Shown here piece after piece: positions 6,241 to 54,200 of a DNA stretch of 64,000 bases. Under the pieces are notes generated by a model, which saw only the letters and a list, made by a program, of their open reading frames with translations, searched no databases and was not told the DNA's origin. The translations under genes and the position numbers were made by a program. The stretch is from contig NC_086107.1 in the NCBI RefSeq assembly GCF_963921235.1, forward strand, positions 98,520,001-98,584,000, given 5' to 3'. How positions within the stretch are numbered: position 1 is the stretch's first letter; each line of letters opens with the position of its first letter. The stretch comes from Mobula hypostoma. Taxonomy: Eukaryota.

Positions 6241-9200
6241 ACATATCCCCCACCCTTCATCCTCCCCGAAACGTCAGCCCCTCCACCCACTTCCAACTCT
6301 CCCTTTCCTCCCTCACCCGTTACTCTTCTGCCTTTCATCGTCCCGTTCCCCTCTCCCCTCCCTCCCCCTCCCCCTACCCCTCCCCCTCCCCACCTCCCCC
6401 TCCCCCCTCCTCCCCCTCCTCCTCCCCTCCCCCTCCTCCTCCCCTCCCCCTCCTCCTCCTCCTCCCCCTCCTCCTCCTCCTCCCCTCACCCTCCCCCTCC
6501 TCCTCCTCCTCCCCTCCCCCTCCCCCTCCTCCCCCTCCCCCTCCTCCCCCTCCCCTCCTCCCCCTCCCCTCCTCCCCCTCCCCCCTCCCCTCCTCCCCCT
6601 CCCCCTCCCCCCTCCTCCCCCTCCCCCTCCCCCTCCTCCCCTCCCCCCTCCTCCTCCCCTCCCCTTCCTCCTCCCTCCCTTCCTCCCCTCCCCCCTCCCT
6701 CCCTTCCTCCCCTCCCCCCTCCCTCCCTTCCTCCCCTCCCCCCTCCCTCCCTTCCTCCCCCCTCCCTTCCTCCCCTCCCCCTCCCCCTTCCTCCCCTCCC
6801 CCATCCCCCTTCCTCCCCTCCCCCTCCCCCTCCCCTCCTCCCCCTCCCCCCTCCTCCCCCTCCCCCCTCCTCCCCCTCCCCCCTCCTCCCCCTCCTCCTC
6901 CTCCTCCCCCTCCTCCTCCTCCTCCCCCTCCTCCTCCTCCTCCCCCCCCTCCCCTCCTCCCCCTCCCCTCCTCCCCCTCCCCTCCTCCCCCTCCCTCCCT
7001 CCACTCCTCCCCCCCTCCCTCCCCTCCTCCCCCCTCCCCCCCTCCCCCCCTCCTCCCCCTCCCCCCCTCCTCCCCTCCCCCTCCCTCCCCTCCTCCTCCC
7101 CCTCCCTCCCCTCCTCCTCCCCCTCCCTCCCCTCCTCCTCCCCCCTCACTCCCCTCCTCCTCCCCCCTCACTCCCCTCCTCCTCCCCCCTCACTCCCCTC
7201 CTCCTCCCCCCTCCCCCTCCCCTCCTCCCCCCTCTCCCTCCCCTCCTCCCCCCTCTCCCTCCCCTCCTCCCCCCTTCCCCTCTCCTCCTCCCCCCTCCCC
7301 TCCTCCCCCTCCCCTTCCCCTCCTCCCCCTCCCCTTCCCCTCCTCCCCCTCCCCTTCCCCTCCTCCCCCTCCCCTTCCCCTCCTCCCCCTCCCCTTCTCC
7401 CCTCCTCCCCCCTTCTCCCCTCCCCTCCCCTTCCCCTCCCCTCCCCTCCTCCTACCCCCTCCCTCCCTCCCCTCCTCCTCCCCCCTCCCTCCCCTCCTCC
7501 TCCCCCCTCCCTCCCCTCCTCCTCCCCCCTCCCTCCCCTCCTCCTCCCCCCTCCCTCCCCTCCTCCTCCCCCTCCCTCCCCTCCTCCTCCCCCCTCCCTC
7601 CCCTCCTCCTCCCCCCTCCCTCCCCTCCTCCTCCCCCCTCCTCCCCCCTCCCTCCCCCCTCCTCCCCCCTCCCTCCCCTCCTCCTCCCCCTCCTCCCCCC
7701 TCCTCCCCCCTCCTCCCCCCTCCTCCCCCCTCCTCCCCCTCCCTCCCCTCCTCCTCCCCCCTCCCTCCCCTCCTCCTCCCCCCTCCCCCTTCCTCTCCTC
7801 CTCCCCTTCCTCTCCTCCTCCCCCTCCCCCTCCCCCTCCCCCTTCCCCTCCCCTCCCCCTCCCTCCCCCTTCCCCTCCCCTCCCCCTCCCTTCCCCTCCC
7901 CCTCCTCCTCCTCCCCCTCCCCCTCCTCCCCCCTCCCTCCCTCCCCTCCTCCCCCCTCCCTCCCTCCCTCCCCTCCTCCCCCTCTCCCTCCCTCCCCCCT
8001 CCCTCCCCTCCTCCTCCCCTCCCCCCTCCTCCCCCCCTCCTCAACCCCTCCTCCTCTCCTCCCCCTCCCCCTCCTCCCCCTCCCCCTCCTCCCCCTCCCC
8101 CCTCCTCCCCCTCCCCCCTCCTCCCCCCCTCCCCCTCCCCCTCCTCCCCCCTCCCCCTCCCCCTCCTCCCCCCTCCCTCCCCTCCTCCTCCCCCCTCCTC
8201 CCCCCTCCCTCCCCCCTCCCTCCCCTCCTCCTCCCTCCCTCCTCCCCCCTCCCTCCCCTCCCCCTTCCCCTCCCCTCCCCCTTCCCCTCCCCCTCCTCCT
8301 CCTCCCCCCTCCCCCTCCTCCCCCCTCCCTCCCTCCCTCCCTCCCCTCCTCCCCCTCTCCCTCCCTCCTCCCCTCCCCCCTCCTCCCCCCTCCTCAACCC
8401 CTCCTCCTCCCCCCTCCCTCCCCTCCTCCTCCCCCTCCCTCCCCTCCTCCTCCCCCCTCCTCTCCCCTCCTCCTCCCCCCTCCTCTCCCCTCCTCCTCCC
8501 CCCTCCTCTCCCCTCCTCCTCCCCCTCCCCCCTCCCCTCCTCCCCCCTCCCCTTCCCCTCCCCTCCTCCCCCCTCCCCTTCCCCTCCTCCCCCCTCCCCC
8601 TCCCCTCCTCCCCCCTCCCCCTCCCCTCCTCCCCCCTCCCCCTCCCCTCCTCCCCCCTCCCCTCCTCCCCCCTCCCCTTCCCCTCCTCCCCCCTCCCCTT
8701 CCCCTCCTCCCCCCTCCCCTTCCCCTCCTCCCCCCTCCCCTTCCCCTCCTCCTCCCTCCCCTCCCCTCCCCTCCCCTCCCCTCCCTCCTTCCTCCTTCCT
8801 CCTCCCTCCCCTCCCTCTCCCCGTCCCCGTTCCCCCTCTCCCCTTCCTCCTCTTCCTCCTCTTCCTGCTCTTCCTCCTCTTCCTCCCCTCTCCCCTTCCT
8901 CCCCTCTGCCCCCCATCTCCCCTTTCCCCCCCATCTTTCTGTCACTCTCGTCAATTCCTCCCCCCCCCCTTTGGTCGTGCGTGTGTTAGATTGCTGATCA
9001 CATTATGTTCAGACACTGAGGGTTAATTTCCCAAACTGCCCAGGAGCAGCTGAGTTGGACAGATGACCTCACAGTGTGCCACCTCTCGGGGATCGGTTAT
9101 GGCACAAATCGCATTTACCAGGCAGATGGAACCAGTATTGAGGCTCACAGCTTGGAGGATGGTTGGCTGAGGTTTCGGTGAGTTTTAACCCCGGGTCTAG

Positions 9201-18200: not shown

Positions 18201-21200
18201 CAACCATGATATAACGTAATGGCAGCACAGATTTGAGGAGCTGAGTCGCTTCCTCCTCGTCCACCAGGGGACACTGGTTTGAGGTGATCGACTGAGGATA
18301 CTGTCACTCTGGCAACAAAGATTTGCATAGTGAGTTTGTATAAACTGGAATGGATATCCTGAGGTGACAGTGGATGCAGTCGCTCATTTTCTTATGGAAT
18401 AGGGGAAAGAACAACTGTTCTACATAAATATAGAACAGTACAGCACAAGAGCAAGCCCTTTAATTCACGCTGTCTGTGTCAAACGCCATGCAAATTTAAA
18501 CCGAATCTCTTCTGCCTGATCCATATCCTTCCATCCCCTATATAGTCATGTGTCTAACAGCATCTTGCTGTCACATCTGCTTCCACGTCCACCCCTGGCA
18601 GTGCGTTCCAGGCTCACTCAGTGCGTTTAAAAAAAAGCGTGCCCCACACATTTCTAGTATTGGGCATATCTAGCATGGGTAAAAGATTTTGATCATGTAC
18701 TCTATCTGTGCTGCTTAATAATTTTATTAACTTCTACCAGGTCTCCCCTTAGCTTTTCTTCACGCCAAAGAAAGCATCCCAAGTTTGTCCAGACTTGTAG
18801 CTCATACCTCTATCCAGACAGCAGCCTAGTAAACCACATCTATACTCTCCAAAGTCTACGCCTCCTTCCTGTAACAGGGGGTGGAGGAGGGAGTAGAATT
18901 ACACACACGTAGGCAGCTCTTTCGTAGAACCAGGATGAATGAGTTGAGATAGATAACCTGTTCCAGCAACATCATTGTGGCTGTTCGGAGCTAATATATC
19001 CAATTTCAACGAGTGCTCCCAGGAAATGCGGGCCACTTTTACTGATATTAACCCATCCATTGATGAATTGGGCTGTATTTGTGTGTGGTATTTTCAGCCG
19101 ATTGGCGAACAGTTCACTTGGTTTCGATCAGCTGGAGGGTGTGAGCAGATGGCTGCACACATTGAGGGCTTTGTTCTCTTTTTCTCCACAGGCCTTCGAT
19201 GTGGTAGAACGCAGCTTCTTCGAATCAATAGATGATTCTCTGGCGGAAAAGGCCAACCTGCAGTCTCAGCTTCCTGAGGTAACAACCCACACCTGTAATT
19301 AATTATCCATGTATTCTCTAACAACTTCTATACTGGTGAGTCTTACTGCAAGTCCGTGTACATCATGTTTGTGTTTGTAGTTGAACCAGCACATTATGTG
19401 GTAGGTTTCCAGTGCTTGGCATTGAGGTGCCTTCCTGGCAAGTCCAACTCTTCAATCCAATCCAATAACTTTTTTATGAGCTACTGAGAGAGACCTAGAC
19501 TGTCATTGATTTTGTCTTTTGGAAGTAAAAGTGAGATCCTGTCTGCTTTCTCAAGTGGACAGTTGAGGTGAGGAGGGGGTGGACCTTTGGCACAGATGGA
19601 GGTGATGCAGTGGAACTGTCCAGGTATCCTGGAGATATGGATTTCTCCACCAGCATAGCTGGCGAGCAGATTATCTGCTTCTTGTTAGTGAGATCTTGCT
19701 GTGTATGAAAGGCTGCTGTGTTCCTTATAGAGGATTAGGAAGTGTTTCACTAGGGCAGTAAGTGACGTCCTGAGGCTGTGAAAGGAATTATTGATGCATT
19801 TCCTCATAGGAGAAGCACTGAACGGAGGACTTCCGGTAGCGCTCATGGAGTGAAGTCGCGTTCTTGACTCGCTCCATTACCTCTGAGTTTTTTTTCTCTA
19901 TGGTCAGCTATACTTTAATTAACCATTAAGGCATCAATTCTTACAATACTTTGAATTAAACTGAATTCTCCGACAATTGGATGGAACTTAGATCTGCTAT
20001 GTCTAAGAACGGGAAAAACGGCAAGGATGGTAAACCTCCGGTTAAACCGAAAGCTACGGATTTCCCCCCGACTGAATCACCGGTGACTTTGAAAGCGATA
20101 TCGGAGTTAATTCAGAGGGAAATTTCAACCTCTGTTAGGGAGATGATTCGTACGGAAATTGCAGGCTCTGTTAAAGACCTGATTCATACGGAAATCTCAA
20201 CTAATTTCCAGAAAATTGCCGATTCAATTGATAAGATGCAAACATGTATTGCGGAACATCAGTCGGCTATATCTGATCTTCAAAAATTCGTGCAACAAAG
20301 TGAGCTTAGGATGGGGAAAATCGAAGAAACAATTAATGTAATGAAGAAGAAACTTGACTTTTTGACTTTTAAAAACTCTGACTTGGAATCTAGAATGCGA
20401 CGGCAGAATTTACGAATGATCGGGGTGAGGGAAGCTGTGGAATCCAACAACCCCATGAAATATTTTTCTCAACTTTTAAAAGATGCATTCCCTACTGTAT
20501 TTCCTGACCAACCACCGCTTCTGGATCGTGTTCACAGAATCCCATCATACTCGTCTAGGTCAGATAGACCTAGGCATGTTATTTTACGTTTTCATTATTT
20601 TCAAGACAAGGAGAGACTGTTTCGATTCGCTCGATCTAAAGGTTTCATTGATTTTTCGGATCTTAAGTTCCGATTCGTGGAAGATTTCAGTAAACCAATC
20701 TGGGACCAACGGGTTCGTTACAGATCCGTGATGTCGGAATTCTATAAGATGGATTTAAGACCAGCGCTGCTGTACCCTGCACGTCTAAGGATTCGCATGT
20801 CAGATGGAGCCCTTCGTGTTTTTGATTCTCCATCGGATGCCCAGAGTTATCTGGATCAACTTTCATCTTCAACATCTTAATTGCCTTTTTTTAATTATCT
20901 CCGTTGATCGGAGGCTGTGAATTGGTTGGTTTTAACTTTTTCGTGCCCTATCTGGGCAGAAAAGTTTACTTTTGATTTCTTAATATGGTTGCTAAACTTT
21001 CTTTTTAACTGCGTCATTTCTTTCTTTTCCCAGGGGATTCTGGGTGGTTACTTCCCTTTTGTCATCTTACGTATTTCCTGTGTGGCCTTAAATTTTGTAG
21101 TTTTTTTAAATTTTATTCTGTTTTGCTTTTTATAACCACTTTATGTCAATAATCTTATTTTTTCTTGTTGCTGTGTCTATTCATGGGTTTGAGGTTTATT

Positions 21201-24200
21201 GTGGTTTTTTTTTAATATATATTTTCCGGCTTTTGTTCTGTTCTGTGTGTATTTTAATTGAGCTACCTTTTTTTTTACTTTTTTACTGTTTTACAATTAG
21301 CTGATCCTTTTCATATTTATACCTTTTTTTTTAGGGAGCGTATACCGGAAGTCATGGGGGTAGTTTTAGCGCTTGCTTCTTTCTGGCGGGTCTGCTTTAG
21401 ATTTTGCCTTGGGGTCTTGGGGTGGGGGGTGGTGGGAGGGGCTTCACGTTTTAGTTTGTTTCTCTTTGGGCTATATACATTATTGAAGTACTGGTTGCGT
21501 CCTTTTTCCCGTATCTTTTGTATGTTCTGTTTCCTCTCCGGGTTTGTGGGTCGCGCCTATCGTCAATCCTCCTTGTTGTGGGTTGACTTTAGGATTTATG
21601 GAGTCTATTATTAATTTTGTCTCCTGGAATACTAATGGTCTTAATCATCCTATTAAAAGGAAAAAAGTTTTTAAAGTGTTCCCGAGACTTAAAGCACAAA
21701 TTTTATTTTTACAAGAGACCCATGTACGGAGGGGGGACAGACTACGTTTTTTCAAATTCTGGAAGGGACAACAATTTCATTCGAACTCCAATGCTAAGAT
21801 TCGAGGCGTCTCTATTTTTATAGATTCCTCAGTTACTTTTATACAACAGGATATTATCTCTGATCCGAATGGTAGATTTTTATTGGTTAGTGGTTTACTA
21901 TTTAATAAAAAAGTAGTTTTGGTTAATGTTTATGCTCCTAATATGGATTGTCCGGAATTTTATAAATCATTGTTTGATCAGTTTCCGAATTTGAACGAGT
22001 TTTCATTGATCTGGGGCGGAGATCTTAATACCTGTTTGTCTCCAGCTTTGGACCGTTCGGCTCCTTTACGGACTTTACCTAATAAATCTGCAAATCTGAT
22101 TAATTTTTTCCTTTCTGATTCTGGGTCGACGGACATTTGGCGTTTTCTGCATCCTCAGGAAAAAGATTTTTCCTTCTTTTCACATGTTCATCATTCCTAT
22201 TCAAGAATTGATTATTTTTTCATTGATTCTCGTCTTATTCCTTCAGTGATTAAATGTGATTATGATTCTATAACCATTTCGGATCATGCTCCACTTAAGC
22301 TTTCTATTAAAATTATGGCCAATATACCAAATAATAGACAATGGCGTTTTAATTCGCTGTTGCTTCAGGACTCGGACTTTGTTAATTTTATGAATGAACA
22401 GATTGAGCTTTTTTTTACAATTAACCATACAGAAGATATTTCGGTTAACACTCTTTGGGACACTTTTAAAGCCTATATTTGGGGTCAGATTATTTCGTAT
22501 TCTGTTGCTTTGAGGAAGAAACAGAAGCAGGAGGAGATGGCAATTGTGGACAAGATTAAAGAAATTGATAAGAAATATGTTATGGCTCCTTCTGAGGAGT
22601 TATACAAACAAAGAACTGAACTTCAAATGGAACACAGTTTACTACTCTCGTCCTCGATTGTAAACCAATTAAAGAAAACAAGAAGTGACTTTTATGTTCA
22701 CAGTGACAAAATTGGCAAGCTGCTGGCTAATCAATTGAAATCTAATTATGTTAAATCTCAAATCAATCAGATTTATAACCAAAATGATCGATTGATACTG
22801 GATCATGTGGGGATTAATCAAACCTTTTGTGATTTTTATTCTTCTTTATATCAGTCAGAGTCTCCTCGAGATTCTAAATATATGAATGATTTTTTAGATA
22901 AGTTAGACTTCCCTCAGATTTCAAAGGATATGTCTTCTTTATTAGATACTTCCATTACAATGGATGAGATTAAGAATGTTATTTTTTCTATGAATCTGGG
23001 GAAAGCTCCTGGCCCTGATGGGTTTACCGTTGAATTTTATAAATGTTTTGCTTCTTTATTGATTCCTTGGCTCGGTAGGGTTTTTGAGGCTTCTTTGAAA
23101 CTTGGTAAACTTCCTGAATCTTTTAATAGAGCATCAATTTCTCTAATACTAAAGATGGATAAAGACCCTGCTCAATGTGCATCTTATAGACCAATATCTT
23201 TATTAAATGTTGATTCTAAAGTTTTTTTCTAAGTTATTAGCAAATAGACTAGAAAAAGTACTTCCTTCTATTATTTCGGAAGACCAAACGGGTTTTATTA
23301 AAGGTCGTTACTCTTTTTATAATATTCGTACATTGTTAAATATCGTTTATACTCCCTCACAAAATGTTCCTGAGTGTGTTATTTCTTTAGATGCCGAGAA
23401 AGCTTTTGATAGAGTAGAATGGCCTTATTTATTTAAGGTGCTTGAACTGTTCAATTTTAGCTTGAAATTTATATCCTGGATTAAACTGTTATATCACTCC
23501 CCTGTAGCCTCGGTTCGTACTAACTCTTTAAACTCACCTTTTTTTCCTCTCTTTCGTGGTACTCGACAAGGCTGTCCTCTTAGTCCCCTATTATTTGATA
23601 TTGCATTAGAACCTCTTGCAATTGCTATTCGAGAATCTTCAAATATTACTGGGATAACTCGGGGATTAAAGTCCCATAAATTATCACTCTATGCTGATGA
23701 TTTACTTTTATATATTTCTAATCCTGAGAGATCCATTCCTGCTGTTTTAGAGTTATTAGCACAATTTGGTCTTTTCTCAGGTTATAAATTAAATCTTAGT
23801 AAGAGTGAACTTTTTCCGATTAATAAACATCTTCCCTTATATTATAAATTTCCATTTAAATTGATTAATAATTACTTTTCATATCTTGGGATTAAAATTA
23901 CTTGTAAATACAAAGATTTATTTAAGACTAACTTTTTACCATTAATAGACCATATTACTCAACTTTCATCTAAATGGTTTCCCTTATATTTAACTTTGAT
24001 TGGTTGTATTAATGCGGTTAAGATGTTTTTTTTTGCCAAAATTTTTATATGTGTTTCAGGCATTACCAATTTTCGTTCCAAAATCTTTTTTTGATAAAGT
24101 TGACTCAATATTTTCTTCATTTATTTGGCAGAATAAGAATCCGAGACTGGGTAAAATACATTTACAGAAAGCTAAGAGAGATGGAGGTTTAGCATTACCT

Positions 24201-27200
24201 AACTTTAGATTCTATTATTGGGCTATTAATATTCGACATATGAAATTTTGGTTACTTGACCAGGACATACTATCTATTCCTAAATGGGTAGCATTGGAAT
24301 TACAATCTGTTCAGGGTTATACATTTGGTTCTATTTTAGGCTCCTCTCTCCCTTTTGATTCGAAACGTCTTAAGCAGGTCTCTAACCCGATAGTTAAATA
24401 TGCTTTGCGCATTTGGTTTCAATTCAGAAAATTTTTTGATCTTAATCAATTCGGGTTAGCGATTCCTATTTTAGGTAACATATTTTTTCCTCCCTCTTTT
24501 ACGGATCGCGCTTTTCAAACTTGGAAGACTAAGGGTATTTTACGGTTTTTGGATTTATTTTTAGATGGTTCCCTTATGTCTTTTGAACAATTATCTAATA
24601 AATATAACTTATCAAGAATACATTTTTTTAGATATTTACAAGTTAGAAATTTCCTAAGTACTATACTTTCTTCCTTTCCAATGCTTCCTCCTACATATAT
24701 TTTAGATTCGATAATTAACCTTAATCCATGTCAGAAAGGTGCATCGGCTATGATTTATAATATTATTATGAAACTTAGGAAAGCTCCATTTGATAAGATT
24801 AGGGTAGATTGGGAACAGGAATTGGGGCTTACCATTTCTGTGGATGATTGGGGGCAGATTTTACAATTAGTTAATACTTCCTCTATTTGTGCTAAACATT
24901 CCCTAATTCAATTTAAAGTGGTTCATAGAGCACATATGTCCAAAGATAAGTTAGCACGTTTTTACTCGCATATTAATCCTTTCTGTGATAGATGTTCGGG
25001 GCAGATAGCCTCTTTAACTCATATGTTTTGGTCTTGCCCTACTTTGGAAACTTTTTGGAGAGATATTTTCAATATTATTTCTAAGGTATTAAATATAGAT
25101 ATCTCTCCTCACCCTATTACTGCTATCTTTGGACTACCTAAAATTTCTAGTAATCTTTCCCCTTCAGCCCGTAGAATGATTGCATTTCTTACTTTAATGG
25201 CGAAAAGATGTATTTTACAACATTGGAAAGAGCTTAATGCTCCAACTACCTTTTTTTGGTTTTCTCAGACGATTTTATGTTTGAATTTGGAGAAAATTAG
25301 AAGTAACCTTTATGATTCTTCATTTAAATTTGAACAGATTTGGGGACCTTTTATTCGATATTTTCATTTAATGTAATATTTACCCTTCTTGTTTTTTTTC
25401 ACTGTTTTTAATGGAGGTCGGGATTGAGGACGTGATTTTAAGTTTAACTCTGTTTGGTTTCAAGTTAGCCCATTGCTTTGCCTTGCTTTTAGTTAGCCGC
25501 ACGGTGGGTTTTTTTTTGGGGGGTTTTTTTTTTCTTTTTTTTCCATTGATATATATAAAATTTAGTATACTATTATGTTATCTTGGTTTCTTATGTTTAA
25601 ATTACATTGTTTGTAGTATTTTCTTTTTGGTATTGATATCTTTTGGAATTTTATTATACTTTAACATTGTATTAATGTTTATATGGCTTACCTTTTTTGT
25701 ATACTTACTCAATAAAAAGATTTAAAAAGAAAAGAAAAGGAGAAGCACTGAACAAAATGGGCTGAGTTGACTCACTGCTTGACAGAAATAGCAGCCCTTG
25801 GGTATAGATTTCCCTTGTGTCGAATCAAGTGTAGGCTTTCACGGCGGGAGGGATCAGACTAATTTGCCTGTGTGCTTAGAGCATTTCTTTGTGTGGACTG
25901 GGGACTGCTGAAAGATCTGTGTGACTGAAAGAGAGAGAGAAAAAACTGTGAGAGAGTTTGCTACAGAGCTTTTCCCATGGAATTACATGCATTTTTCATT
26001 ATTTTCCTGCACTAACACCAACTGTCCAGATGACCAGGTGAGACCACCAAGACATTCCCATCCTCCAAACTTCTGTCCTTCTGTCTTCTTGCTTCATCTA
26101 CAGTCAGGCATTTAATAAAAAAGGGTGTATGGGGTGTCAGGGAGGGGTAGCACCTCTGGTGGGGGAACATGTCGCGTCCTTTTCAGGGTGGTTAGTCCAC
26201 CTTCGGTCCCCACCTGGCACTCAGCTCTCACCTGTGGCTCCCCGTAGCTGTTTGCATGCGACAGCGGCCACACCCCGGGCAACGGCTTCGACAAGCCGGC
26301 TAAACCAGGTGAGGGTAGCCGACGGGTCTCAAACCCTCAGTGAGATAGGGAGTTGTCTATCCCAGCATGTGAAGACAGACTCCGGGGGATTGAGCGGACG
26401 AGACCGATGGAAGGTCCAACGGTCAAGAAGGCGGTCTCTGCAAGCGTTGTGGAACATGTAGAGCACGACAAGACACAGAAGACGTCCTGGTCATCCACTG
26501 CGCCTAGTCCCATCTCCAGCCGTCTGGACTCTGTCTTGCCACTGGACCCAGATGGGAATTGAGAAGAGAAAGTGAGGCTGACGCTGCGCAACTCTCCCTC
26601 ACTTAAATCCAAATCAAGCGCTAGTCTTCACACCATCATTATGGTGTTGAGGTCCTCTTCGACGTCAACGATGGACGAACCAAAAAAAAAGGTTATCTCT
26701 AGCAAGGAATATATTTGGTTCACTCATGCCCCATATGAGCCACCACTTACAAACTCACTTTAGTACATTCAGAATATATTTGTATCCCTTTCTCGCTAAT
26801 GCAATTATATAGATTTTCCCTAAATGCACCGAATCCATATGCCTTGAGACCTACATTAAAGGCTGGATAATCTTGAGTTGTTTTTCTCTGGGATGGTGGA
26901 GGCAGATGAGAGATCTGATAGTTTTATAAGATTGAGAGGCGTAGGTAGAATAGACGGGGAGTATCTGTTTCCCAAGGTTGAATTGTCTCAAACCAGCGGG
27001 CGTGCATTGAAGGTGAGAGGAGGTAAGTTCAGGGGGAATGTGAGGTAAGTTTTTTACTCAGTCATGGATGCCTGGAATGTGCTGCCTGGTCTGATGGTAG
27101 AGGCAAATATATTAGAGGTTTTTAAGAGACATTTGAATAGACGCATAGATGTGAGGAAGATGGAGAGATATGGACATTGTGTAGGTGGAAAGGATTAGTG

Positions 27201-45200: not shown

Positions 45201-48200
45201 CGGAAGGGAAGGGGAGAAGTCAGAGTAAGAAGGTGGGGGAGGGTGGAAGAAGTACAAGGGGGCAGGTGGCTCTCATGGTCAAAGAGGCGGAGGGCAACGG
45301 GGGGGTGGGGGGAGCAGTGAGAGAATGTTTCACTGAAGGGCAGACATCCCTCAGAAGAGACTTCACAGTCATTGTAGAATCACAAACACAAGAAAATCTG
45401 CTACTGCTGAAAATCCAAAGCAACATGCACCTTGCCACCTTGTACTACTTCCTCCCAGTCCCACCACCACCTTCCTGCACTGACTTCTCCCCTTCCTTTC
45501 CAGTCGCGATGAAGGGTCTCAACCCAGAAGATCACCTGTTTACTCTTCTCCAAAGATGCTGCCTGACCTGCTGAGTTCCTCCAGCAATTTGTGCACGTTG
45601 CTTTGTATATCTTTGAGCTTTCTTTAAATAAAGGCATCCGTTAGTCTTGCGAGACCATGGATCTGCGCCTGGAAAGTCTTCCCTCTCCATGACACCGATG
45701 TTGTCCAAGGGAAGGGCATTAGGACCCATACAGCTTGGCACCAGTGTCGTCGCAGAGCAATATGTGATTAAGTGCCTTGCTCAGGGACACAACACGTTCC
45801 CCCGGCTGGGGCTCGAACTCACGACCTTCAGGTAGCTAGTCCAATGCCTTAACCACTTGGCCACATGCCCACTGTCTTTAAATAATCTTCAGTTTCAATC
45901 TTCTGATGTACAAAATAGAAACAGGCATTGGTTCTAGGAGCTCTTGAGCCTGCTACATTAGGTAGTGGATAAAGGTCTTGGCTTCACTTTCCAGTCCAAA
46001 CTTAAAGTCGCTTACTTTGTTTGGAGTTAGAAAAAAGAGTTTCATAAGCATACGCATTAAAGGATCATTAAGAATTTCTTTCTTTTTAAATCTTTTTATT
46101 GAGTAAGTATACAAAAAAGGTAAGCCATATAAACATTAATACAATGTTAAAGTATAATAAAATTCCAAAAGATATCAATACCAAAAAGAAAATACTACAA
46201 ACAATGTAATTTAAGCATAAGAAACCAAGATAACATAATAGTATACTAAATTTTATATATATCAATGGAAAAAAAAGAAAAAAAAAAACCCCAAAAAAAA
46301 ACCCACCGTGCAGCTAACTAAAAGCAAGGCAAAGCAATGGGCTAACTTGAAACCAAACAGAGTTAAACTTAAAATCACGTCCTCAATCCCGACCTCCATT
46401 AAAAACAGTGAAAAAAAAACAAGAAGGGTAAATATTACATTAAATGAAAATATCGAATAAAAGGTCCCCAAATCTGTTCAAATTTAAATGAAGAATCATA
46501 AAGGTTACTTCTAATTTTCTCCAAATTCAAACATAAAATCGTCTGAGAAAACCAAAAAAAGGTAGTTGGAGCATTAAGCTCTTTCCAATGTTGTAAAATA
46601 CATCTTTTCGCCATTAAAGTAAGAAATGCAATCATTCTACGGGCTGAAGGGGAAAGATTACTAGAAATTTTAGGTAGTCCAAAGATAGCAGTAATAGGGT
46701 GAGGAGAGATATCTATATTTAGTACCTTAGAAATAATATTGAAAATATCTCTCCAAAAAGTTTCCAAAGTAGGGCAAGACCAAAACATATGAGTTAAAGA
46801 GGCTATCTGCCCCGAACATCTATCACAGAAAGGATTAATATGCGAGTAAAAACGCGCTAACTTATCTTTGGACATATGTGCTCTATGAACCACTTTAAAT
46901 TGAATTAGGGAATGTTTAGCACAAATAGAGGAAGTATTAACTAATTGTAAAATCTGCCCCCAATCATCCACAGAAATGGTAAGCCCCAATTCCTGTTCCC
47001 AATCTACCCTAATCTTATCAAATGAAGCTTTCCTAAGTTTCATAATAATATTATAAATCATAGCCGATGCACCTTTCTGACATGGATTAAGGTTAATTAT
47101 CGAATCTAAAATATATGTAGGAGGAAGCATTGGAAAGGAAGAAAGTATAGTACTTAGGAAATTTCTAACTTGTAAATATCTAAAAAAATGTATTCTTGAT
47201 AAGTTATATTTATTAGATAATTGTTCAAAAGACATAAGGGAACCATCTAAAAATAAATCCAAAAACCGTAAAATACCCTTAGTCTTCCAAGTTTGAAAAG
47301 CGCGATCCGTAAAAGAGGGAGGAAAAAATATGTTACCTAAAATAGGAATCGCTAACCCGAATTGATTAAGATCAAAAAGTTTTCTGAATTGAAACCAAAT
47401 GCGCAAAGCATATTTAACTATCGGGTTAGAGACCTGCTTAAGACGTTTCGAATCAAAAGGGAGAGAGGAGCCTAAAATAGAACCAAGTGTATAACCCTGA
47501 ACAGATTGTAATTCCAATGCTACCCATTTAGGAATAGATAGTATGTCCTGGTCAAGTAACCAAAATTTCATATGTCGAATATTAATAGCCCAATAATAGA
47601 ATCTAAAGTTAGGTAATGCTAAACCTCCATCTCTCTTAGCTTTCTGTAAATGTATTTTACCCAGTCTCGGATTCTTATTCTGCCAAATAAATGAAGAAAT
47701 TTTAGAGTCAACTTTATCAAAAAAAGATTTAGGAACGAAAATTGGTAATGCCTGAAACACATATAAAAATTTTGGCAAAAAAAACATCTTAACTGCATTA
47801 ATACGACCAATCAAAGTTAAATATAAGGGAAACCATTTAGATGAAAGTTGAGTAATATGGTCTATTAATGGTAAAAAGTTAGTCTTAAATAAATCTTTGT
47901 ATTTACAAGTAATTTTAATCCCAAGATATGAAAAGTAATTATTAATCAATTTAAATGGAAATTTATAATATAAGGGAAGATGTTTATTAATCGGAAAAAG
48001 TTCACTCTTACTAAGATTTAATTTATAACCTGAGAAAAGACCAAATTGTGCTAATAACTCTAAAACAGCAGGAATGGATCTCTCAGGATTAGAAATATAT
48101 AAAAGTAAATCATCAGCATAGAGTGATAATTTATGGGACTTTAATCCCCGAGTTATCCCAGTAATATTTGAAGATTCTCGAATAGCAATTGCAAGAGGTT

Positions 48201-51200
48201 CTAATGCAATATCAAATAATAGGGGACTAAGAGGACAGCCTTGTCGAGTACCACGAAAGAGAGGAAAAAAAGGTGAGTTTAAAGAGTTAGTACGAACCGA
48301 GGCTACAGGGGAGTGATATAACAGTTTAATCCAGGATATAAATTTCAAGCTAAAATTAAACATTTCAAGCACCTTAAATAAATAAGGCCATTCTACTCTA
48401 TCAAAAGCTTTCTCGGCATCTAAAGAAATAACACACTCAGGAACATTTTGTGAGGAAGTATAAACGATATTTAACAATGTACGAATATTATAAAAAGAGT
48501 AACGACCTTTAATAAAACCCGTTTGGTCTTCCGAAATAATAGAAGGAAGTACTTTTTCTAGTCTATTTGCTAATAACTTAGAAAAAACTTTAGAATCAAC
48601 ATTTAATAAAGATATTGGTCTATAAGATGCACATTGAGCAGGGTCTTTATCCTTCTTTAGTATTAGAGAAATTGATGCTCTATTAAAAGATTCAGGAAGT
48701 TTACCAAGTTTCAAAGAAGCCTCAAAAACCCTACAGAGCCAAGGAATCAATAAAGAAGCAAAACATTTATAAAATTCAACGGTAAACCCATCAGGGCCAG
48801 GAGCTTTCCCCAGATTCATAGAAAAAATAACATTCTTAATCTCATCCATTGTAATGGAAGTATCTAATAAAGAAGACATATCCTGTGAAATCTGAGGGAA
48901 GTCTAACTTATCTAAAAAATCATTCATATATTTAGAATCCCGAGGAGACTCTGATTGATATAAAGAAGAATAAAAATCACAAAAGGTTTGATTAATCCCC
49001 ACATGATCCAGTATCAATCGATCATTTTGGTTATAAATCTGATTGATTTGAGATTTAACATAATTAGATTTCAATTGATTAGCCAGCAGCTTGCCAATTT
49101 TGTCACTGTGAACATAAAAGTCACTTCTTGTTTTCTTTAATTGGTTTACAATCGAGGACGAGAGTAGTAAACTGTGTTCCATTTGAAGTTCAGTTCTTTG
49201 TTTGTATAACTCCTCAGAAGGAGCCATAACATATTTCTTATCAATTTCTTTAATCTTGTCCACGATTGCCATCTCCTCCTGCTTCTGTTTCTTCCTCAAA
49301 GCAACAGAATACGAAATAATCTGACCCCGAATATAGGCTTTAAAAGTGTCCCAAAGAGTGTTAACCGAAATATCTTCTGTATGGTTAATTGTAAAAAAAA
49401 GCTCAATCTGTTCATTCATAAAATTAACAAAGTCCGAGTCCTGAAGCAACAGCGAATTAAAACGCCATTGTCTATTATTTGGTATATTGGCCATAATTTT
49501 AATAGAAAGCTTAAGTGGAGCATGATCCGAAATGGTTATAGAATCATAATCACATTTAATCACTGAAGGAATAAGACGAGAATCAATGAAAAAATAATCA
49601 ATTCTTGAATAGGAATGATGAACATGTGAAAAGAAGGAAAAATCTTTTTCCTGAGGATGCAGAAAACGCCAAATGTCCGTCGACCCAGAATCAGAAAGGA
49701 AAAAATTAATCAGATTTGCAGATTTATTAGGTAAAGTCCGTAAAGGAGCCGAATGGTCCAAAGCTGGAGACAAACAGGTATTAAGATCTCCGCCCCAAAT
49801 CAATGAAAACTCGTTCAAATTCGGAAACTGATCAAACAATGATTTATAAAATTCCGGACAATCCATATTAGGAGCATAAACATTAACCAAAACTACTTTT
49901 TTATTAAATAGTAAACCACTAACCAATAAAAATCTACCATTCGGATCAGAGATAATATCCTGTTGTATAAAAGTAACTGAGGAATTTATAAAAATAGAGA
50001 CGCCTCGAATCTTAGCATTGGAGTTCGAATGAAATTGTTGTCCCTTCCAGAATTTGAAAAAACGTAGTCTGTCCCCCCTCCGTACATGGGTCTCTTGTAA
50101 AAATAAAATTTGTGCTTTAAGTCTCCGGAACACTTTAAAAACTTTTTTCCTTTTAATAGGATGATTAAGACCATTAGTATTCCAGGAGACAAAATTAATA
50201 ATAGACTCCATAAATCCTAAAGTCAACCCACAACAAGGAGGATTGACGATAGGCGCGACCCACAAACCCGGAGAGGAAACAGAACATACAAAAGATACCG
50301 GGAAAAAGGACGCAACCAATACTTCAATAATGTATATAGCCCAAAGAGAAACAAACTAAAACGTGAAGCCCCTCCCACCACCCCCCCGCCCCAAGACCCC
50401 AAGGCAAAATCTAAAGCAGACCCGCCAGAGAGAAGCAAGCGCTAAAACTACCCCCATGACTTCCGGTATACGCTCCCTAAAAAAAAAGGTATAAATATGA
50501 AAAGGATCAGCTAATTGTAAAACAGTAAAAAAGTAAATAAAAAAAAGTTAGCTCAATTAAAATACACACAGAACAGAACAAAAGCCGGAAAATATATATT
50601 TTAAAAAACCACAATAAACCTCAAACCCATGAATAGACACAGCAACTAGAAAAAATATGATTATTGACATAAAGTGGTTATAAAAAGCAAAACAGAATAA
50701 AATTTTAAAAAAACTACAAAATTTAAGGCCACACAGGAAATACGTAAGATGACAAAAGGGAAGTAACCACCCAGAATCCCCTGGGAAAAGAAAGAAATGA
50801 CGCAGTTAAAAAGAAAGTTTAGCAACCATATTAAGAAATCAAAAATAAATTTTTCTGCCCAGATAGGACACGAAAAAGTTAAAACCAACCAATTCACAGC
50901 CTCCGATCAACGGAGATAATTAAAAAAAGGCAATTAAGATGTTGAACATGAAAGTTGATCCAGATAACTCTGGGCATCCGATGGAGAATCAAAAAAACGA
51001 AGGGCTCCATCTAACATGCGAATCCTTAGACGTGCAGGGTACAGCAGCGCTGGTCTTAAATCCATCTTATAGAATTCCGACATCACGGATCTGTAATGAA
51101 CGCGTTGGTCCCAGATTGGTTTACTGAAATCTTCCACGAATCGGAACTTAAGATCCGAAAAATCAATGAAACCTTTAGATCGAGCGAATCGAAACAGTCT

Positions 51201-54200
51201 CTCCTTGTCTTGAAAATAATGAAAACGTAAAATAACATGCCTAGGTCTATCTGACCTAGACGAGTATGATGGGATTCTGTGAACACGATCCAGTAGCGGT
51301 GGTTGGTCAGGAAATACAGTAGGGAATGCATCTTTTAAAAGTTGAGAGAAATATTTCATGGGGTTGTTGGATTCCACAGCTTCCCTCACCCCGATCATTC
51401 GTAAATTCTGCTGTCGCATTCTAGATTCCAAGTCAGAGTTTTTAAAAGTCAAAAAGTCAAGTTTCTTCTTCATTACATTAATTGTTTCTTCGATTTTCCC
51501 CATCCTAAGCTCACTTTGTTGCACGAATTTTTGAAGATCAGATATAGCCGACTGATGTTCCGCAATACATGTTTGCATCTTATCAATTGAATCGGCAATT
51601 TTCTGGAAATTAGTTGAGATTTCCGTATGAATCAGGTCTTTAACAGAGCCTGCAATTTCCGTACGAATCATCTCCCTAACAGAGGTTGAAATTTCCCTCT
51701 GAATTAACTCCGATATCGCTTTCAAAGTCACCGGTGATTCAGTCGGGGGGAAATCCGTAGCTTTCGGTTTAACCGGAGGTTTACCATCCTTGCCGTTTTT
51801 CCCGTTCTTAGACATAGCAGATCTAAGTATCATCCAATTGTCGGAGAATTCAGTTTAATTCAAAGTATTGTAAGAATTGATGCCTTAATGGTTAATTAAA
51901 GTATAGCTGACCATAGAGAAAAAAAAAACTCAGAGGTAATGGAGCGAGTCAAGAACGCGACTTCACTCCATGGGCGCTACCGGAAGTCTGGATCATTAAG
52001 AATTTAAAGGATAGAAATGCACATTCACGGCACTCTTGAGTGGAGAGGATTTTGTCCATCTCAGTTTAGAGACCTGCTGTGTAATTCATCATTGTTAATT
52101 TGAACAAAAATGTTTCAGCATTTCCTTTAGCTGGCCCCAATTTTAGAATCTTATCATCTACCGTCACGCTTCTTCAGCCATTTCCAGGATCCAGTAAGGG
52201 CACTTACTCTTCTGCGGTCGAGTGAGAGTAGGTTAAATTAGCCCACTCTGAGTTCCTAACATCAGTGGAAAATAAGTCAGCCTTATCCCAAAATTCAATC
52301 TGATGCGTCCTCATTTCACCACCTCGAAAGCAAGCTTTGTCCTCCTCAACAAGGAGAGGATGGTCAACATGCTTCAGGTGTGACCTCATTGAAGCACAAA
52401 TACAGTAAGACTTCCTTTCACCTTGCTGCAAAGACCTTTACAATTGTTATTAGAATTGCCCTCTTTACCTATATGTTTCACCTAATCTATCTGAACAACT
52501 TCTAATTGTTTCCCACTAATTTAAAACAAAACATCAGAATCAGGTTTAATATCATAGTCCTTTGTTATGAAATTGGTTAACTTTGTGGCAACAGTACAAT
52601 GAATAATATTTTAAAAAGCTGTAAATTGCAGTAAATGTATATTAAATAGTTAAATTAAATAAGTAGTGCAAGAACAGAAATAAAAAGCATTGAGTTAGTG
52701 TTCATGGGTTCAATGTCCATTCAGAGATCAGTTGGCAGAAGGTAAGAAACTGTTCCTGAATCGTTTTGTGCACTTTTAGTTTTCTGCACCTCCTTCCTGA
52801 TGGTAACAGTAACAAGAGGCATGCCCTGGGTGTTGGGGGCCCTTACTGATGGATGCCGCCTTATTTGAGGCACTGCTCCTTGAAGATGTCTTGGATACTA
52901 CAGGGGCTAGTATCCATGATGGAGATGACTAATTTTACAACTCTCTGTAGCTTTTATCGATCCTGTGCAGTCTCCTCCCCCCACTCCCATAGCAGATGGT
53001 GATGCAGCCAGTCAGAATTCTCTCCACAGTACACCTGTAGAAATTTTGGAGAGCATAGGTGATAATTCAAGTGTCCTCAAATTCCTAATGAAATATAGCT
53101 GCTCTCTTGCCTTCTTTATAGTTGCATCGATATGTCGGGTGCGGATTATGTCCTCAGAGATATTCTCCTGCCAGGAACTTGAAATTGCTCGCTCTCTCCA
53201 CTTCTGACCCCTCTATGAGGATTGGTTTGTGTTCCCTCATCTTACCCTTTCTGAAGCCACAATCAGCTCTTTGGTCTTACTGACATTGAGTGGGAGGTTG
53301 TTGCTGTGACACCACTCAATTAGCTGGTACATCTCACTCCCGTACAGCCTCTCATCACCATCTGAGATCGTGCCAACAATAGTTGTATCATCAGCAAATT
53401 TATAGATAGCATTAAAAACATAGGTCATATGGAAATAACTAACCTCAATTACCCATGTTCTCAGCCCACACTACTTTGACCTTTCAGTTAAAGAGCTTTT
53501 AGATTAATTTTTCAAAAATTTGGCATTGCAAGTTGGGTATATTTTACCCTCTCTGTCGTCCTTGAGAAGACGGTGGTGAACTGCCTTCTTAAATCTGGTG
53601 AGGTTTCTACTGGGCTGGGAGTCCCATTGTTCACACTGAACTGTAAAGAAATAGAAAGAAAAAATTAGGGATTTGTATGAATGAAGAGAATTCTGCATGT
53701 GCCTGAAGAGAACACGGGTGTGAGAATAAACTGGGCTGGTCGTCACTTTTTCTGTTGTGCATGTCGCACAATGCAGTGGGGAGAGTGAAGTTGAAACATA
53801 CCCTTCTCCTGTTTGCTGTTTAATTGCGCTCCACCATGCATGACTGCAGGATTGCAGAGTCCCATCTGATCTGGTTACCTCTGTCCATTACCTGTAGTTT
53901 CATTACTTTAGCCTATTGTGGTTCTGAGCTGCGCTGGACCAGGTTGTTACCTCATTTTTAGATATTCTTGTACTGCTCCCAGAGGACCTCACAGGCAGTC
54001 ACAAAACAAAGACTCTTCTCAGAGCTGCCAAAAGCCTATATTAAGGAAATACCTGTACCTAACACAGTTTGTATGGACTGGGTTGTTTGTGTTTAACTTG
54101 ATTCTAGTTTTGAACCACCAGAACTGCTTTGAGTCTGTCCCATTTAGTGTGGTAAGTGTCATTGGGGTGGAGACTGGATTTTTGTCTCCACGAGGACTGT

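What the first reader, a model, noticed from the sequence alone, without database searches (positions are those of the whole stretch)
26117..26692. Ribozyme-headed non-coding retroposon (SIDE-like) that may need no promoter of its own
Seen: the ~560-bp element starts at the ribozyme G1, preceded only by a short gtgtat and the probable TSD aaaaaagg. It has a multi-hairpin J1/2 (ggtgggg/ccccacc, agggtgg/ccacctt), no obvious Pol III A/B boxes, no ORF, and a 3' hairpin plus A-tail. Established: R2 SIDEs consist of a ribozyme plus a LINE 3' end and are cut out of host transcripts. Inference: this may be an analogous vertebrate family that parasitises intronic Pol II transcription and is mobilised by an RTE-type LINE.
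Basis: partly seen in the sequence, partly recalled or inferred. Interest (0 to 1): 0.75.

Follow-up and report, generated by a model that had tools for sequence, protein, structure and literature searches.

The report
Ribozyme-headed non-autonomous RTE retroposon
This is one copy of a young, highly repeated 560-base jumping element of a probable cartilaginous fish; it starts with a hepatitis-delta-type self-cutting RNA fold and ends with the tail of an RTE-type LINE, a known kind of element with an unusual ribozyme layout.

Summary
The element is real. It spans window 26123-26680, is flanked by the duplication AAAAAAGG, and belongs to a family with at least 1380 exact-head copies in this 3.48-Gb genome. 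Copies are 95-96% alike, have 7-15-bp target duplications, are often 5'-truncated, and end in (AAC)n or (AACC)n, not in poly-A. The first ~195 bases fit an HDV-like double pseudoknot. Older sister families conserve its core and show a compensatory change in P4. Copies begin at GGGGTRTAT, and those first seven bases can form P1 with ACACCCC. Two features are atypical: a conserved 19-nt hairpin inserted in L3, and the duplicated P1. About 380 bases of the 5' part are homologous to the head and 5' UTR of a ~4.1-kb RTE-like LINE that carries the same ribozyme at its exact 5' end. The 3' hairpin and GGACGAAC(AAC)n end match a young, intact RTE-like LINE. It is therefore a bipartite, SIDE-like, non-autonomous RTE derivative, a kind already described. 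Self-cleavage and promoter independence remain untested.

The parts
26117..26124 (+). 5' target-site duplication AAAAAAGG. Its last GG overlaps the element's 5' G-run (microhomology).
   Evidence: same word at 26685-26692. Among 44 full-length copies, 39 show a shared flank word of 6-15 nt.
26123..26130 (+). Unit 1 (GGGTGTAT; family form GGGGTRTAT). It is the true 5' end of the element and the proposed 5' strand of P1. This copy lacks the first G.
   Evidence: 68 of 100 listed heads have exactly GGGG before TRTAT. In one search the TSD abuts the G-run directly in 26 of 39 junctions.
26131..26224 (+). J1/2 peripheral domain. It is closed by a 10-bp helix (P1.2-like): GGGTGTCAGG 26132-26141 with CCTGGCACTC 26213-26222.
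   Evidence: helix present in both MFE and centroid folds, -40.9 kcal/mol, z = -1.74; helix kept with changed sequence in the I and O families.
26225..26234 (+). P2 5' strand CTCTCACCTG
   Evidence: 95.8% of cells paired with 26306-26315, although the 3' strand was fixed by the search anchor; 11/11 identical between family majorities.
26236..26246 (+). P3 5' strand GGC (26236-26238) and L3 TCCCCGTA (26239-26246). The CC can pair with GG 26277-26278 to form P1.1.
   Evidence: L3 reads TCC(CC/TC/AA)GTA across the three families. P3 90.9% paired, P1.1 80.8% paired.
26247..26265 (+). Extra hairpin inserted in L3 (GCTGT TTGCATGCG ACAGC). It is not part of the canonical HDV-like fold.
   Evidence: hairpin folds at -5.2 kcal/mol; 18-20 of 20 positions identical between family majorities; 90.8% paired.
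26267..26276 (+). P3 3' strand GCC (26267-26269) and P1 3' strand ACACCCC (26270-26276)
   Evidence: 10/10 identical between family majorities.
26277..26305 (+). J1/4 GGGCAA, then P4 hairpin CGGCTT-CGAC-AAGCCG (26283-26298), then J4/2 GCTAAAC (26299-26305). The candidate catalytic C is at 26300.
   Evidence: P4 -6.6 kcal/mol, z = -3.7. P4 pair at columns 175-188 is CG in 8 rows and GC in 8 rows.
26306..26315 (+). P2 3' strand CAGGTGAGGG. This is the end of the ribozyme.
26316..26625 (+). Body, homologous to the 5' UTR of RTE-like LINEs
   Evidence: positions 8-385 of the 576-nt query match the head and 5' UTR of the I-type LINE copy at 76%; positions 237-510 match LINE-A (L108) 602-878 at 76%.
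26626..26680 (+). 3' recognition module: a long hairpin (26626-26651), a short bulged hairpin (26657-26673) and the terminal GGACGAAC (26673-26680).
   Evidence: same architecture and identical end in LINE-A (GGTCATCTTCGACTACGAAGGACGAAC(AAC)3), with one flipped inner stem pair; one copy carries a double compensatory change in the long hairpin.
26681..26692 (+). Short tail remnant (CAAA) and 3' target-site duplication AAAAAAGG (26685-26692)
   Evidence: Family tails are (AAC)n or (AACC)n.

Best explanation
The element is a bipartite, ORF-less, non-autonomous derivative of an RTE-type LINE. Roughly its first 500 bases are homologous to LINE 5' UTR and its last ~55 bases to a LINE 3' end. It is copied by target-primed reverse transcription using the protein of a co-resident, intact RTE-like LINE, which recognises the 3' bulged hairpin plus GGACGAAC(AAC)n. 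Its first ~195 nt encode an HDV-like self-cleaving ribozyme. Once transcribed (from any upstream promoter, or from one of its own, which is not known), the RNA is proposed to cut itself immediately 5' of the first G of GGGGURUAU. P1 forms between those first 7 nt and ACACCCC. Cleavage gives every transcript the same 5' end, and that end is what the copies carry. Shown here: family structure, TSDs, 5' truncation, position of 5' ends, homology to LINE heads and tails, and conservation and covariation of the fold. Inferred: catalytic activity, which P1 is used, the polymerase, and which LINE is the helper.
For: The family is young and large. One search found 4615 first-look candidates, and the 39 scored copies were 95-96% identical. 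One search found 1380 exact heads. TPRT marks are present. Of 44 full-length copies, 39 have a shared flank word, 37 of them 7-15 nt long. Of 30 copies picked by their 3' end, 14 are 5'-truncated. Tails are (AAC)n or (AACC)n. The 5' end is sharp. In one search, 68 of 100 listed heads have exactly four G before TRTAT (manual tally). In one search, 26 of 39 junctions are direct, and 13 carry 1-11 extra bases. Eickbush et al. 2013 describe variable junctions of this sort for R2s that cleave at the element's own 5' end (PMC3774820 abstract). All HDV-like helices and the motifs L3 UCCNNG, J1/4 GG and J4/2 GCUAAAC are present. The descriptor matched 0 of 3000 shuffles (post hoc). In an alignment of 26 copies from three families, 83.8% of cells pair, against 32.8-48.8% when partners are slid. 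One P4 pair is CG in 8 rows and GC in 8 rows. The J1/2 closing helix is kept with different sequences. Between family majorities the J1/2 interior is 46-55 of 71 identical. By contrast P2 5' is 11/11, P3'+P1' is 10/10 and the L3 hairpin is 18-20/20. A ~4.1-kb LINE copy has this ribozyme at its exact 5' end, with APE and RT remnants, an (AACC)3 tail and TSD ACCTAAA. A second head lies at the same spacing from an RT remnant: 2023 nt against 2017 nt. The intact LINE-A has a 1129-aa ORF with APE and RT domains. It shares the 3' module and part of the 5' UTR with the element. Its copies are of similar age, 96-97% identical. Literature: P1.2 'pinch' domains activate large HDV-like ribozymes (PMC4908430, passages). 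Duplicated P1 at the 5' end, with cleavage at the upstream copy, is an R2 model (PMC3774820, section 18). About a quarter of R2 ribozymes have mismatches at the top of P1 (section 16).
Against: No Rfam HDV-like model matches, even at E = 10. L3 carries a 19-nt hairpin insert that I did not find in the consensus descriptions I read. About 14-18% of heads read GGGGTAT, which puts an A.C mismatch into P1, and no compensating change is seen in P1'. In the alignment of decayed copies P1 is paired in only 64.6% of cells. The 3' strand of P2 and J4/2 were fixed by my search anchor, so their invariance across families is no evidence. The whole-head MFE is not unusual, z = -0.08. No RNA data show a cleaved end. 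The young candidate helper LINE-A shows no HDV-like motif in its GC-rich 5' region. No LINE carrying both the Y-type body and another continuation was found. A sharp 5' end could equally come from a precise transcription start.
Confidence: 0.6

Rival explanations
1. Same bipartite RTE derivative, but the 5' end is set by a transcription start. An internal Pol II promoter lies in the inherited LINE 5' UTR. The HDV-like fold is then a relic, or serves another role such as protein binding or IRES-like translation in the parent LINE.
For: The 5' end is sharp. An extra G at full-length junctions would also fit reverse transcription of a cap (recalled from L1 biology, not tested here). 6 of 100 heads have five G. 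L1Tc combines an internal promoter and an HDV-like ribozyme in the same first 77 nt (PMC3383444, abstract start in the search listing). The L3 insert may disable catalysis. LINE-A seems to do without the fold.
Against: The core is conserved well above the neighbouring J1/2 interior. Pairing is kept through changed sequence in P4 and P1.2. The first 7 nt of the element are exactly the complement of the P1 3' strand, a coincidence a plain start site would not need.
Confidence: 0.25
2. One reading: cleavage occurs at 26131 (the second GGGGTGT), and the 8-9 bases in front are junction filler.
For: GGGGTGT at 26131-26137 is a perfect 7-bp partner of ACACCCC. In this particular copy it is a better partner than unit 1, which lacks its first G. 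5 of 1395 heads have unrelated sequence directly in front of it.
Against: 1380 heads carry the same TRTAT leader. The leader has its own heritable G/A polymorphism. It is present in the older O and I families too. Contig ends in other organisms' runs break at 26123, not at 26131 (table 7). The heptamer is paired in the J1/2 closing helix in both MFE and centroid folds.
Confidence: 0.05
3. An ordinary Pol III SINE with an unrecognised small-RNA head. The HDV-like resemblance is chance.
For: Weak A-box-like (TAGCACCTCTGG) and B-box-like (GGTTAGTCC) words lie ~40 nt apart inside J1/2 (the box consensus is recalled).
Against: ARAGORN and Rfam find no tRNA, 5S, 7SL or snRNA likeness. A TTTT run sits at 26180-26183 in the sense strand. 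The head is the 5' end of a LINE. The descriptor matched 0 of 3000 shuffles.
Confidence: 0.05

Closest known systems
Bipartite ORF-less non-autonomous LINEs of the RTE clade, e.g. RTESINE2 and WALLSI3 (Kojima 2018, PMC5786205; abstract and section 23 read)
   Same: Made only of the 5' and 3' parts of an RTE LINE and keeps the LINE's true 5' end. Kojima links this to the self-cleaving ribozyme predicted at the 5' end of several RTE families.
   Different: The host is a probable cartilaginous fish. The ribozyme fold is laid out here explicitly and has an L3 hairpin insert and a duplicated P1. The present-day candidate helper (LINE-A) seems to have lost the head. I could not compare with Repbase or Dfam, so identity with a named family is not excluded.
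R2 SIDEs (Eickbush & Eickbush 2012, PMC3414825; only the abstract start in a search listing seen)
   Same: Internal-deletion derivatives that keep a 5' HDV-like ribozyme and the 3' end needed for TPRT.
   Different: R2 and its SIDEs insert in 28S rDNA and use a restriction-like endonuclease. This family is dispersed, has 7-15-bp TSDs, and has an APE-type helper.
HDV-like ribozymes of RTE and Baggins elements, and drz-Agam-2-1. Ruminski et al. 2011 is not held and is known only through passages of PMC6765202 and PMC4908430.
   Same: A ribozyme at the LINE 5' end. The review states that these elements carry no promoter and are transcribed from introns or from upstream LTR elements. A structured J1/2 (P1.2) domain brings P1 and P2 together.
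   Different: Those examples are from insects. No L3 insert is described in the passages I read. No Rfam model of those ribozymes matches here.
R2 ribozyme evolution model (Eickbush, Burke & Eickbush 2013, PMC3774820; abstract and sections 12, 16, 18, 19 read)
   Same: Duplicated P1 at the 5' end with cleavage at the upstream copy. This extends the element and enlarges J1/2. Mismatches at the top of P1 are tolerated. 5' junctions are variable when cleavage is at the element's own end.
   Different: In R2 the duplicated segment is 28S target sequence. Here it is the element's own first 9 nt (GGGGTGCAT twice in the I family).
L1Tc/NARTc of Trypanosoma cruzi (PMC6765202 passages; PMC3383444 listing)
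   Same: An autonomous LINE and its non-autonomous truncated partner share a 5' HDV-like ribozyme, and insertions are dispersed.
   Different: Ingi clade, a 77-nt minimal ribozyme that doubles as a promoter, and polycistronic host transcription.

Membership tests
HDV-like self-cleaving ribozyme | Nested double pseudoknot with P1, P2, P3, P1.1 and P4 in the canonical order | tested here: met
   All five helices can be drawn. 83.8% of 1052 cells pair in 26 copies, against 32.8-48.8% for slid partners.
HDV-like self-cleaving ribozyme | A ~7-bp P1 that starts at the cleavage-site nucleotide, with its 3' strand directly after P3 | tested here: met
   GGGGTGT (family first 7 nt) pairs with ACACCCC, which abuts GCC of P3. 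In the window copy the first G is missing, leaving 6 bp.
HDV-like self-cleaving ribozyme | Conserved active-site letters: L3 U..CC..G, GG after P1' for P1.1, and C in J4/2 | tested here: met
   L3 reads TCC(NN)GTA in all three families and GG follows P1'. J4/2 is GCTAAAC, but it was fixed by my anchor. Which letters are conserved is taken from PMC3774820 sections 12 and 16, and partly from recall.
HDV-like self-cleaving ribozyme | L3 is a short closed loop | tested here: not met
   A 19-nt hairpin plus one G lies between L3 and the 3' strand of P3. It is conserved in all three families.
HDV-like self-cleaving ribozyme | Match to a curated covariance model (Rfam HDV, CPEB3 or drz families) | tested here: not met
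   No match at gathering score nor at E up to 10. The long J1/2 and the L3 insert would be expected to hinder such a match.
HDV-like self-cleaving ribozyme | Site-specific self-scission | not testable with these tools
   No raw RNA reads were available. The only indirect sign is that genomic 5' ends coincide with the predicted site.
Bipartite (ORF-less) non-autonomous LINE / SIDE-like element | The 5' part is homologous to the 5' end of an autonomous LINE | tested here: met
   76% identity over 381 aligned positions to the head and UTR of a ~4.1-kb LINE copy. 76% over 282 aligned positions to the LINE-A 5' UTR.
Bipartite (ORF-less) non-autonomous LINE / SIDE-like element | The 3' part is homologous to the LINE 3' end | tested here: met
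   The last ~36 nt align with LINE-A, the terminal GGACGAAC(AAC)n is identical, and the hairpin architecture is the same.
Bipartite (ORF-less) non-autonomous LINE / SIDE-like element | One LINE family that owns both the same head and the same tail | tested here: inconclusive
   The I-type LINE has the head but a different 3' end, though with an (AACC)n tail. LINE-A has the tail and part of the UTR but no HDV motif. A pattern for a Y-type LINE junction found nothing.
Bipartite (ORF-less) non-autonomous LINE / SIDE-like element | No RT or EN coding capacity, and spread by TPRT | tested here: met
   The two tested frames overlapping the element gave no Pfam domain. TSDs and 5' truncations are present.
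R2 SIDE in the strict sense | Insertion at the R2 site of 28S rDNA with an R2 helper | tested here: not met
   Copies lie on many contigs with unrelated flanks and variable TSDs. The candidate helper has an APE endonuclease.
Small-RNA-headed Pol III SINE | Head derived from tRNA, 5S, 7SL or snRNA | tested here: not met
   ARAGORN found 0 genes. Rfam gave no such match at E up to 10.
RTE clade (for the helper LINE) | Single ~1000-aa APE+RT ORF, no ORF1, and a very short 3' UTR ending in short tandem repeats | tested here: met
   L108 has one ORF of 1129 aa with Exo_endo_phos and RVT_1. About 50 nt separate the stop codon from (AAC)3. The features that define the clade are recalled (Malik & Eickbush 1998, not read).
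RTE clade (for the helper LINE) | Phylogenetic placement of the RT among RTE references | not tested
   The only evidence is by name. 11 of 120 listed endonuclease hits are called 'craniofacial development protein 2(-like)'. A reference title links a bovine Bcnt protein to the RTE-1 endonuclease domain. That this protein is CFDP2 is recalled.

The most novel reading that the evidence does not exclude
The head is an active HDV-like ribozyme of a new structural variant, with a conserved hairpin inserted in L3 and a duplicated P1 of which the upstream copy is used. It lets a promoter-less, thousand-copy vertebrate retroposon lineage be cut out of host transcripts. The parasite has kept this ancestral processing device over several family turnovers (O, then Y). 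Its current autonomous helper, meanwhile, has replaced the ribozyme head by a GC-rich 5' region that in some copies includes a piece of a host gene.
Probability: 0.3. Interest if true: 0.6.

Novelty: new member of a known kind. Interest (0 to 1): 0.4.

Why it matters
If the fold cleaves, this would be a high-copy, recently active vertebrate family in which a ribozyme rather than a promoter defines the retroposon's 5' end. The idea that RTE-type elements ride on host transcription could then be tested in a vertebrate with thousands of datable insertions. The L3 insert would also show that structure-descriptor and Rfam searches miss a class of HDV-like ribozymes. If it does not cleave, the element is still a clean example of the bipartite RTE derivatives that Kojima (2018) proposed as the source of SINE bodies.

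Tried and rejected
Rfam at gathering and at E up to 10 gave no HDV-like or small-RNA family. ARAGORN found no tRNA.

The MFE of the head is not better than shuffles.

No RNA holder was listed. All runs are kept as contigs, so no RNA start, end or strand could be read. The four runs laid are only guessed to be RNA.

The most abundant RT family (1264-aa ORF2, zinc-knuckle C-terminus, A-rich end) is L1-like and shares nothing with the element.

The window and the flanks of 60 loci hold no partial match to the element and no other element with an (AAC)n end resembling it.

A pattern for 'same last 16 nt, different sequence 78-80 nt upstream' gave 41 hits. All were indel-bearing or 5'-truncated copies of the element, and none showed a recurrent LINE continuation.

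A recurrent non-element continuation after position ~229 turned out to be another transposon nested in the element.

A pattern for a LINE continuing beyond the Y-type body found nothing.

The 115-codon frame has no homologue among longer proteins. A search of 1.84 billion representatives returned 15 unnamed hits, 14 of them 72-282 aa long and one a 1095-aa protein at E = 3.5e-4. I treat the frame as UTR-derived, not as a gene.

My relaxed HDV descriptor gives many spurious combinations, so only its consistent hits were used.

Earlier scan notes held nothing on this element.

Only small samples of the O, I and LINE-A families could therefore be read. 5 of 31 head copies with large deletions, and the 5'-broken copies among L063-L102, were left out of alignment A1.
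Full report
**What is at the coordinates.**
Window 26123-26680 (+) is one copy of a dispersed repeat. A search of the window's own 3.48-Gb assembly gave 4615 first-look candidates. The 39 scored copies other than the window are 95-96% identical. Earlier notes of this scan call the genome a cartilaginous fish (unchecked AI notes). The best named protein hits of its LINEs come from a stingray and a sawshark, which agrees.

**It is a retroposon spread by target-primed reverse transcription.**
- Among 58 distinct copies read with flanks, 44 are full-length and 14 are 5'-truncated at scattered positions from 21 to 414.
- In 39 of the 44 full-length copies the two flanks share a word of 6-15 nt; 37 of these words are 7 nt or longer.
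- Tails are (AAC)n or (AACC)n, not poly-A. The A-run of the window copy is mostly its target duplication.
- The duplication usually starts right after GT and begins with A, which suggests a weak target preference.

**Where the element starts.**
- Genome-wide, 1380 sites carry TRTAT directly before GGGGTGTCAGGGAGGGGTAGCACC.
- Only 15 sites lack it. Ten of those are one-base variants of the same leader, and 5 have unrelated sequence.
- In 100 listed heads (of 1227 matches) I counted the G-run before TRTAT by hand. It is exactly four G in 68, five in 6, three in 10, two in 8 and one in 8.
- The base before GGGG is T in 52 of those 68. Where both flanks are known, that T belongs to the target duplication.
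- The duplication abuts the G-run in 26 of 39 junctions, and 13 carry 1-11 extra bases.
- The leader has its own heritable G/A polymorphism: the A form is in 14-18 of 100 heads.
- Contigs of runs from other organisms break at 26123 in 7, 10 and 1 records for X1, X3 and X13 respectively, each with unlike upstream letters (table 7).

**The ribozyme fold.**
Starting from the element's first base, the sequence can be drawn as an HDV-like double pseudoknot.
- P1: GGGGUGU, the family's first 7 nt. The window copy lacks the first G and has 26123-26128. It pairs with ACACCCC 26270-26276.
- J1/2: a ~95-nt domain closed by a 10-bp helix, 26132-26141 with 26213-26222. This helix appears in both the MFE and the centroid fold.
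- P2: 26225-26234 with 26306-26315.
- P3: GGC 26236-26238 with GCC 26267-26269.
- L3: UCCCCGUA.
- P1.1: the CC of L3 with GG 26277-26278.
- P4: 26283-26298.
- J4/2: GCUAAAC, with a candidate catalytic C at 26300.

A descriptor written after seeing the fold matched 0 of 3000 dinucleotide shuffles. Because it is post hoc, this is a rough figure only.

Against membership:
- Rfam has no match at all.
- L3 carries a 19-nt hairpin (26247-26265) before the 3' strand of P3. None of the descriptions I read mentions such an insert.

**Comparative support.**
A pattern that keeps the 18-nt end of the ribozyme but forbids the young family's letters 121-123 nt downstream found 548 sites. Many of them belong to older relatives. 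I read 40 of these heads. I then aligned 26 complete heads (5 young 'Y', 6 intermediate 'I' and 15 old 'O'), leaving out 5 copies with large deletions and the 5'-broken ones.
- On this alignment 83.8% of 1052 cells pair in the proposed structure, against 32.8-48.8% when partners are slid by 1-3 columns. None of 500 shuffles reached the observed covariation score. The tool warns that related sequences can do this without any structure.
- The clearest event is in P4: one pair is C-G in 8 rows and G-C in 8 rows, with G-U and U-G intermediates in neighbouring pairs.
- The J1/2 closing helix is kept with different letters in the three families.
- Between family majorities the J1/2 interior is only 46-55 of 71 identical. 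By contrast, the P2 5' strand is 11/11, P3'+P1' is 10/10 and the L3 hairpin is 18-20/20. L3 varies only at its two middle positions.
- P2's 3' strand and J4/2 were fixed by my anchor and say nothing.
- P1 pairs in only 64.6% of cells in these decayed copies.

**Fit with published ribozyme biology.**
- Eickbush, Burke and Eickbush (PMC3774820; abstract and sections 12, 16, 18, 19 read) report P1 of 6-7 bp with mismatches at its top in about a quarter of R2s, and P1 and P1' separated by 23 to over 700 nt.
- They report variable 5' junctions when cleavage is at the element's own end.
- They also propose a model in which a duplicated P1 at the 5' end, cleaved at the upstream copy, extends the element and enlarges J1/2. 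That is the layout seen here. In the I family the first 9 nt are an exact tandem repeat.
- Webb et al. [quoted passage not shown]

**Origin and helper.**
- The I-type heads are LINE 5' ends. One copy runs ~4.1 kb from the ribozyme through decayed APE and RT frames to an (AACC)3 tail, flanked by ACCTAAA.
- A second I-type head lies 2023 nt upstream of an RT remnant, against 2017 nt in the first copy.
- The element matches this LINE's first ~380 nt at 76%.
- A second, young LINE family ('LINE-A', copy L108) has an intact 1129-aa ORF with Exo_endo_phos and RVT_1 domains and a weak C2H2 match.
- LINE-A's 5'-UTR copies are 96-97% alike, with 909 first-look candidates.
- Its UTR matches element positions 237-510 at 76%.
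- Its 3' end is GGTCATCTTCGACTACGAAGGACGAAC(AAC)3. It aligns with the element's last ~36 nt, has the same bulged-hairpin architecture with one flipped inner stem pair, and has an identical terminus.
- LINE-A is therefore the likeliest helper (inference).
- Its endonuclease hits include 11 of 120 listed proteins named 'craniofacial development protein 2(-like)'. Together with the ORF layout and the short tandem-repeat tail, this points to the RTE clade. The link between that name and RTE-1 rests on a reference title and on recall. No tree was built.
- LINE-A's own 5' region is GC-rich and shows no consistent HDV-like motif.
- One O-type copy read in full ends about 330 nt after the ribozyme in ...GATGAAC(AAC). 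This suggests the O family is an older short element of the same design.

**Comparison with what is known.**
- Kojima (PMC5786205; abstract and section 23 read) lists RTE, Ingi, Vingi and R2 as the clades that produce bipartite ORF-less non-autonomous LINEs.
- He notes that these derivatives usually keep the LINE's 5' end, and he ties this to the self-cleaving ribozyme predicted for several RTE families by Ruminski et al. 2011. That paper is not held.
- The review PMC6765202 (passages) states that ribozyme-bearing RTE and Baggins elements lack promoters and are transcribed from introns or from upstream LTR elements.
- The element is therefore a new member of a known kind. It is not an R2 SIDE in the strict sense, because its insertions are dispersed and its helper is of the APE type.
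- A full-text search combining the HDV-like ribozyme term with shark, elasmobranch, cartilaginous, RTE and SINE returned papers that hold none of the first term among the 15 listed. I therefore found no report for cartilaginous fish in that library.
- Repbase and Dfam could not be consulted.

**What remains open.**
- Catalysis, the choice between the two P1 copies, and the polymerase that makes the RNA are all inferred.
- The TTTT at 26180-26183 argues against Pol III for the young family, but it is absent from the older ones.
- No raw RNA reads exist in the runs offered, and there is no gene annotation.
- A precise transcription start remains a live rival, which I put at about 0.25.

Noticed in passing
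L108:3-446; also L112 and L117: Three copies of the young RTE-like LINE on different contigs carry, upstream of the shared GC-rich 5' region, the same piece resembling a methylmalonyl-CoA-epimerase-type exon (Pfam Glyoxalase_4, E = 2.3e-10). The LINE subfamily seems to have captured or transduced host sequence at its 5' end, possibly together with a CpG-rich promoter.
   Followed up: partly
L108:1185-2114: The endonuclease domain of the shark LINE is 75-76% identical to proteins of penaeid shrimps and 59-60% identical to tapeworm proteins. Its RT relative is ~70% identical to opossum proteins. Such likeness across phyla is what horizontal transfer of RTE elements would give.
   Followed up: no
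window 6348-8902: A 2.5-kb polypyrimidine array of (CCCCTC)n type, open in all six frames.
   Followed up: partly
window 19960-25737 (+) and 46075-51854 (-): Two L1-like LINE copies that are 99% identical over their last 739 nt. The minus-strand copy has an open ORF1 (306 aa, Transposase_22) and an open ORF2 (1306 aa, APE + RT + zf-RVT). The plus-strand copy is frame-broken and ends about 385 nt before the element. This L1-like family also gave all of the top 150 RVT_1 hits in the genome.
   Followed up: partly
G000:C1:92979850 (L062) and G000:C1:183629098: Two copies of the element are interrupted at the same position (after ...GAGATAGGGA) by the same ~1.1-kb foreign sequence. In L062 it is flanked by a 10-nt duplication. 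This is either a duplicated locus or an insertion hot spot.
   Followed up: partly
G000:C5:123956832-124174817: Ten heads lie within 220 kb on one contig: eight near-identical old-type heads and two of another type, spaced ~3-39 kb apart in both orientations. This looks like a segmentally duplicated block.
   Followed up: no
G000:C9:23084628: One copy carries a double change in the long 3' hairpin (ACC/GGT to AGC/GCT) that keeps the stem. It may descend from a source copy with a compensated hairpin. The loop also varies (CATT, CAA, CATAA) among copies.
   Followed up: no
rows, e.g. G000:C1:242990076, C1:245257417, C2:3662334: Some copies carry a third partial unit (..GTATGGGG) in front of GGGGTRTAT. 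TAT precedes GGGG in 8 of 68 four-G heads. This hints at ongoing 5' duplication of the 9-nt unit or at heterogeneous cleavage.
   Followed up: no
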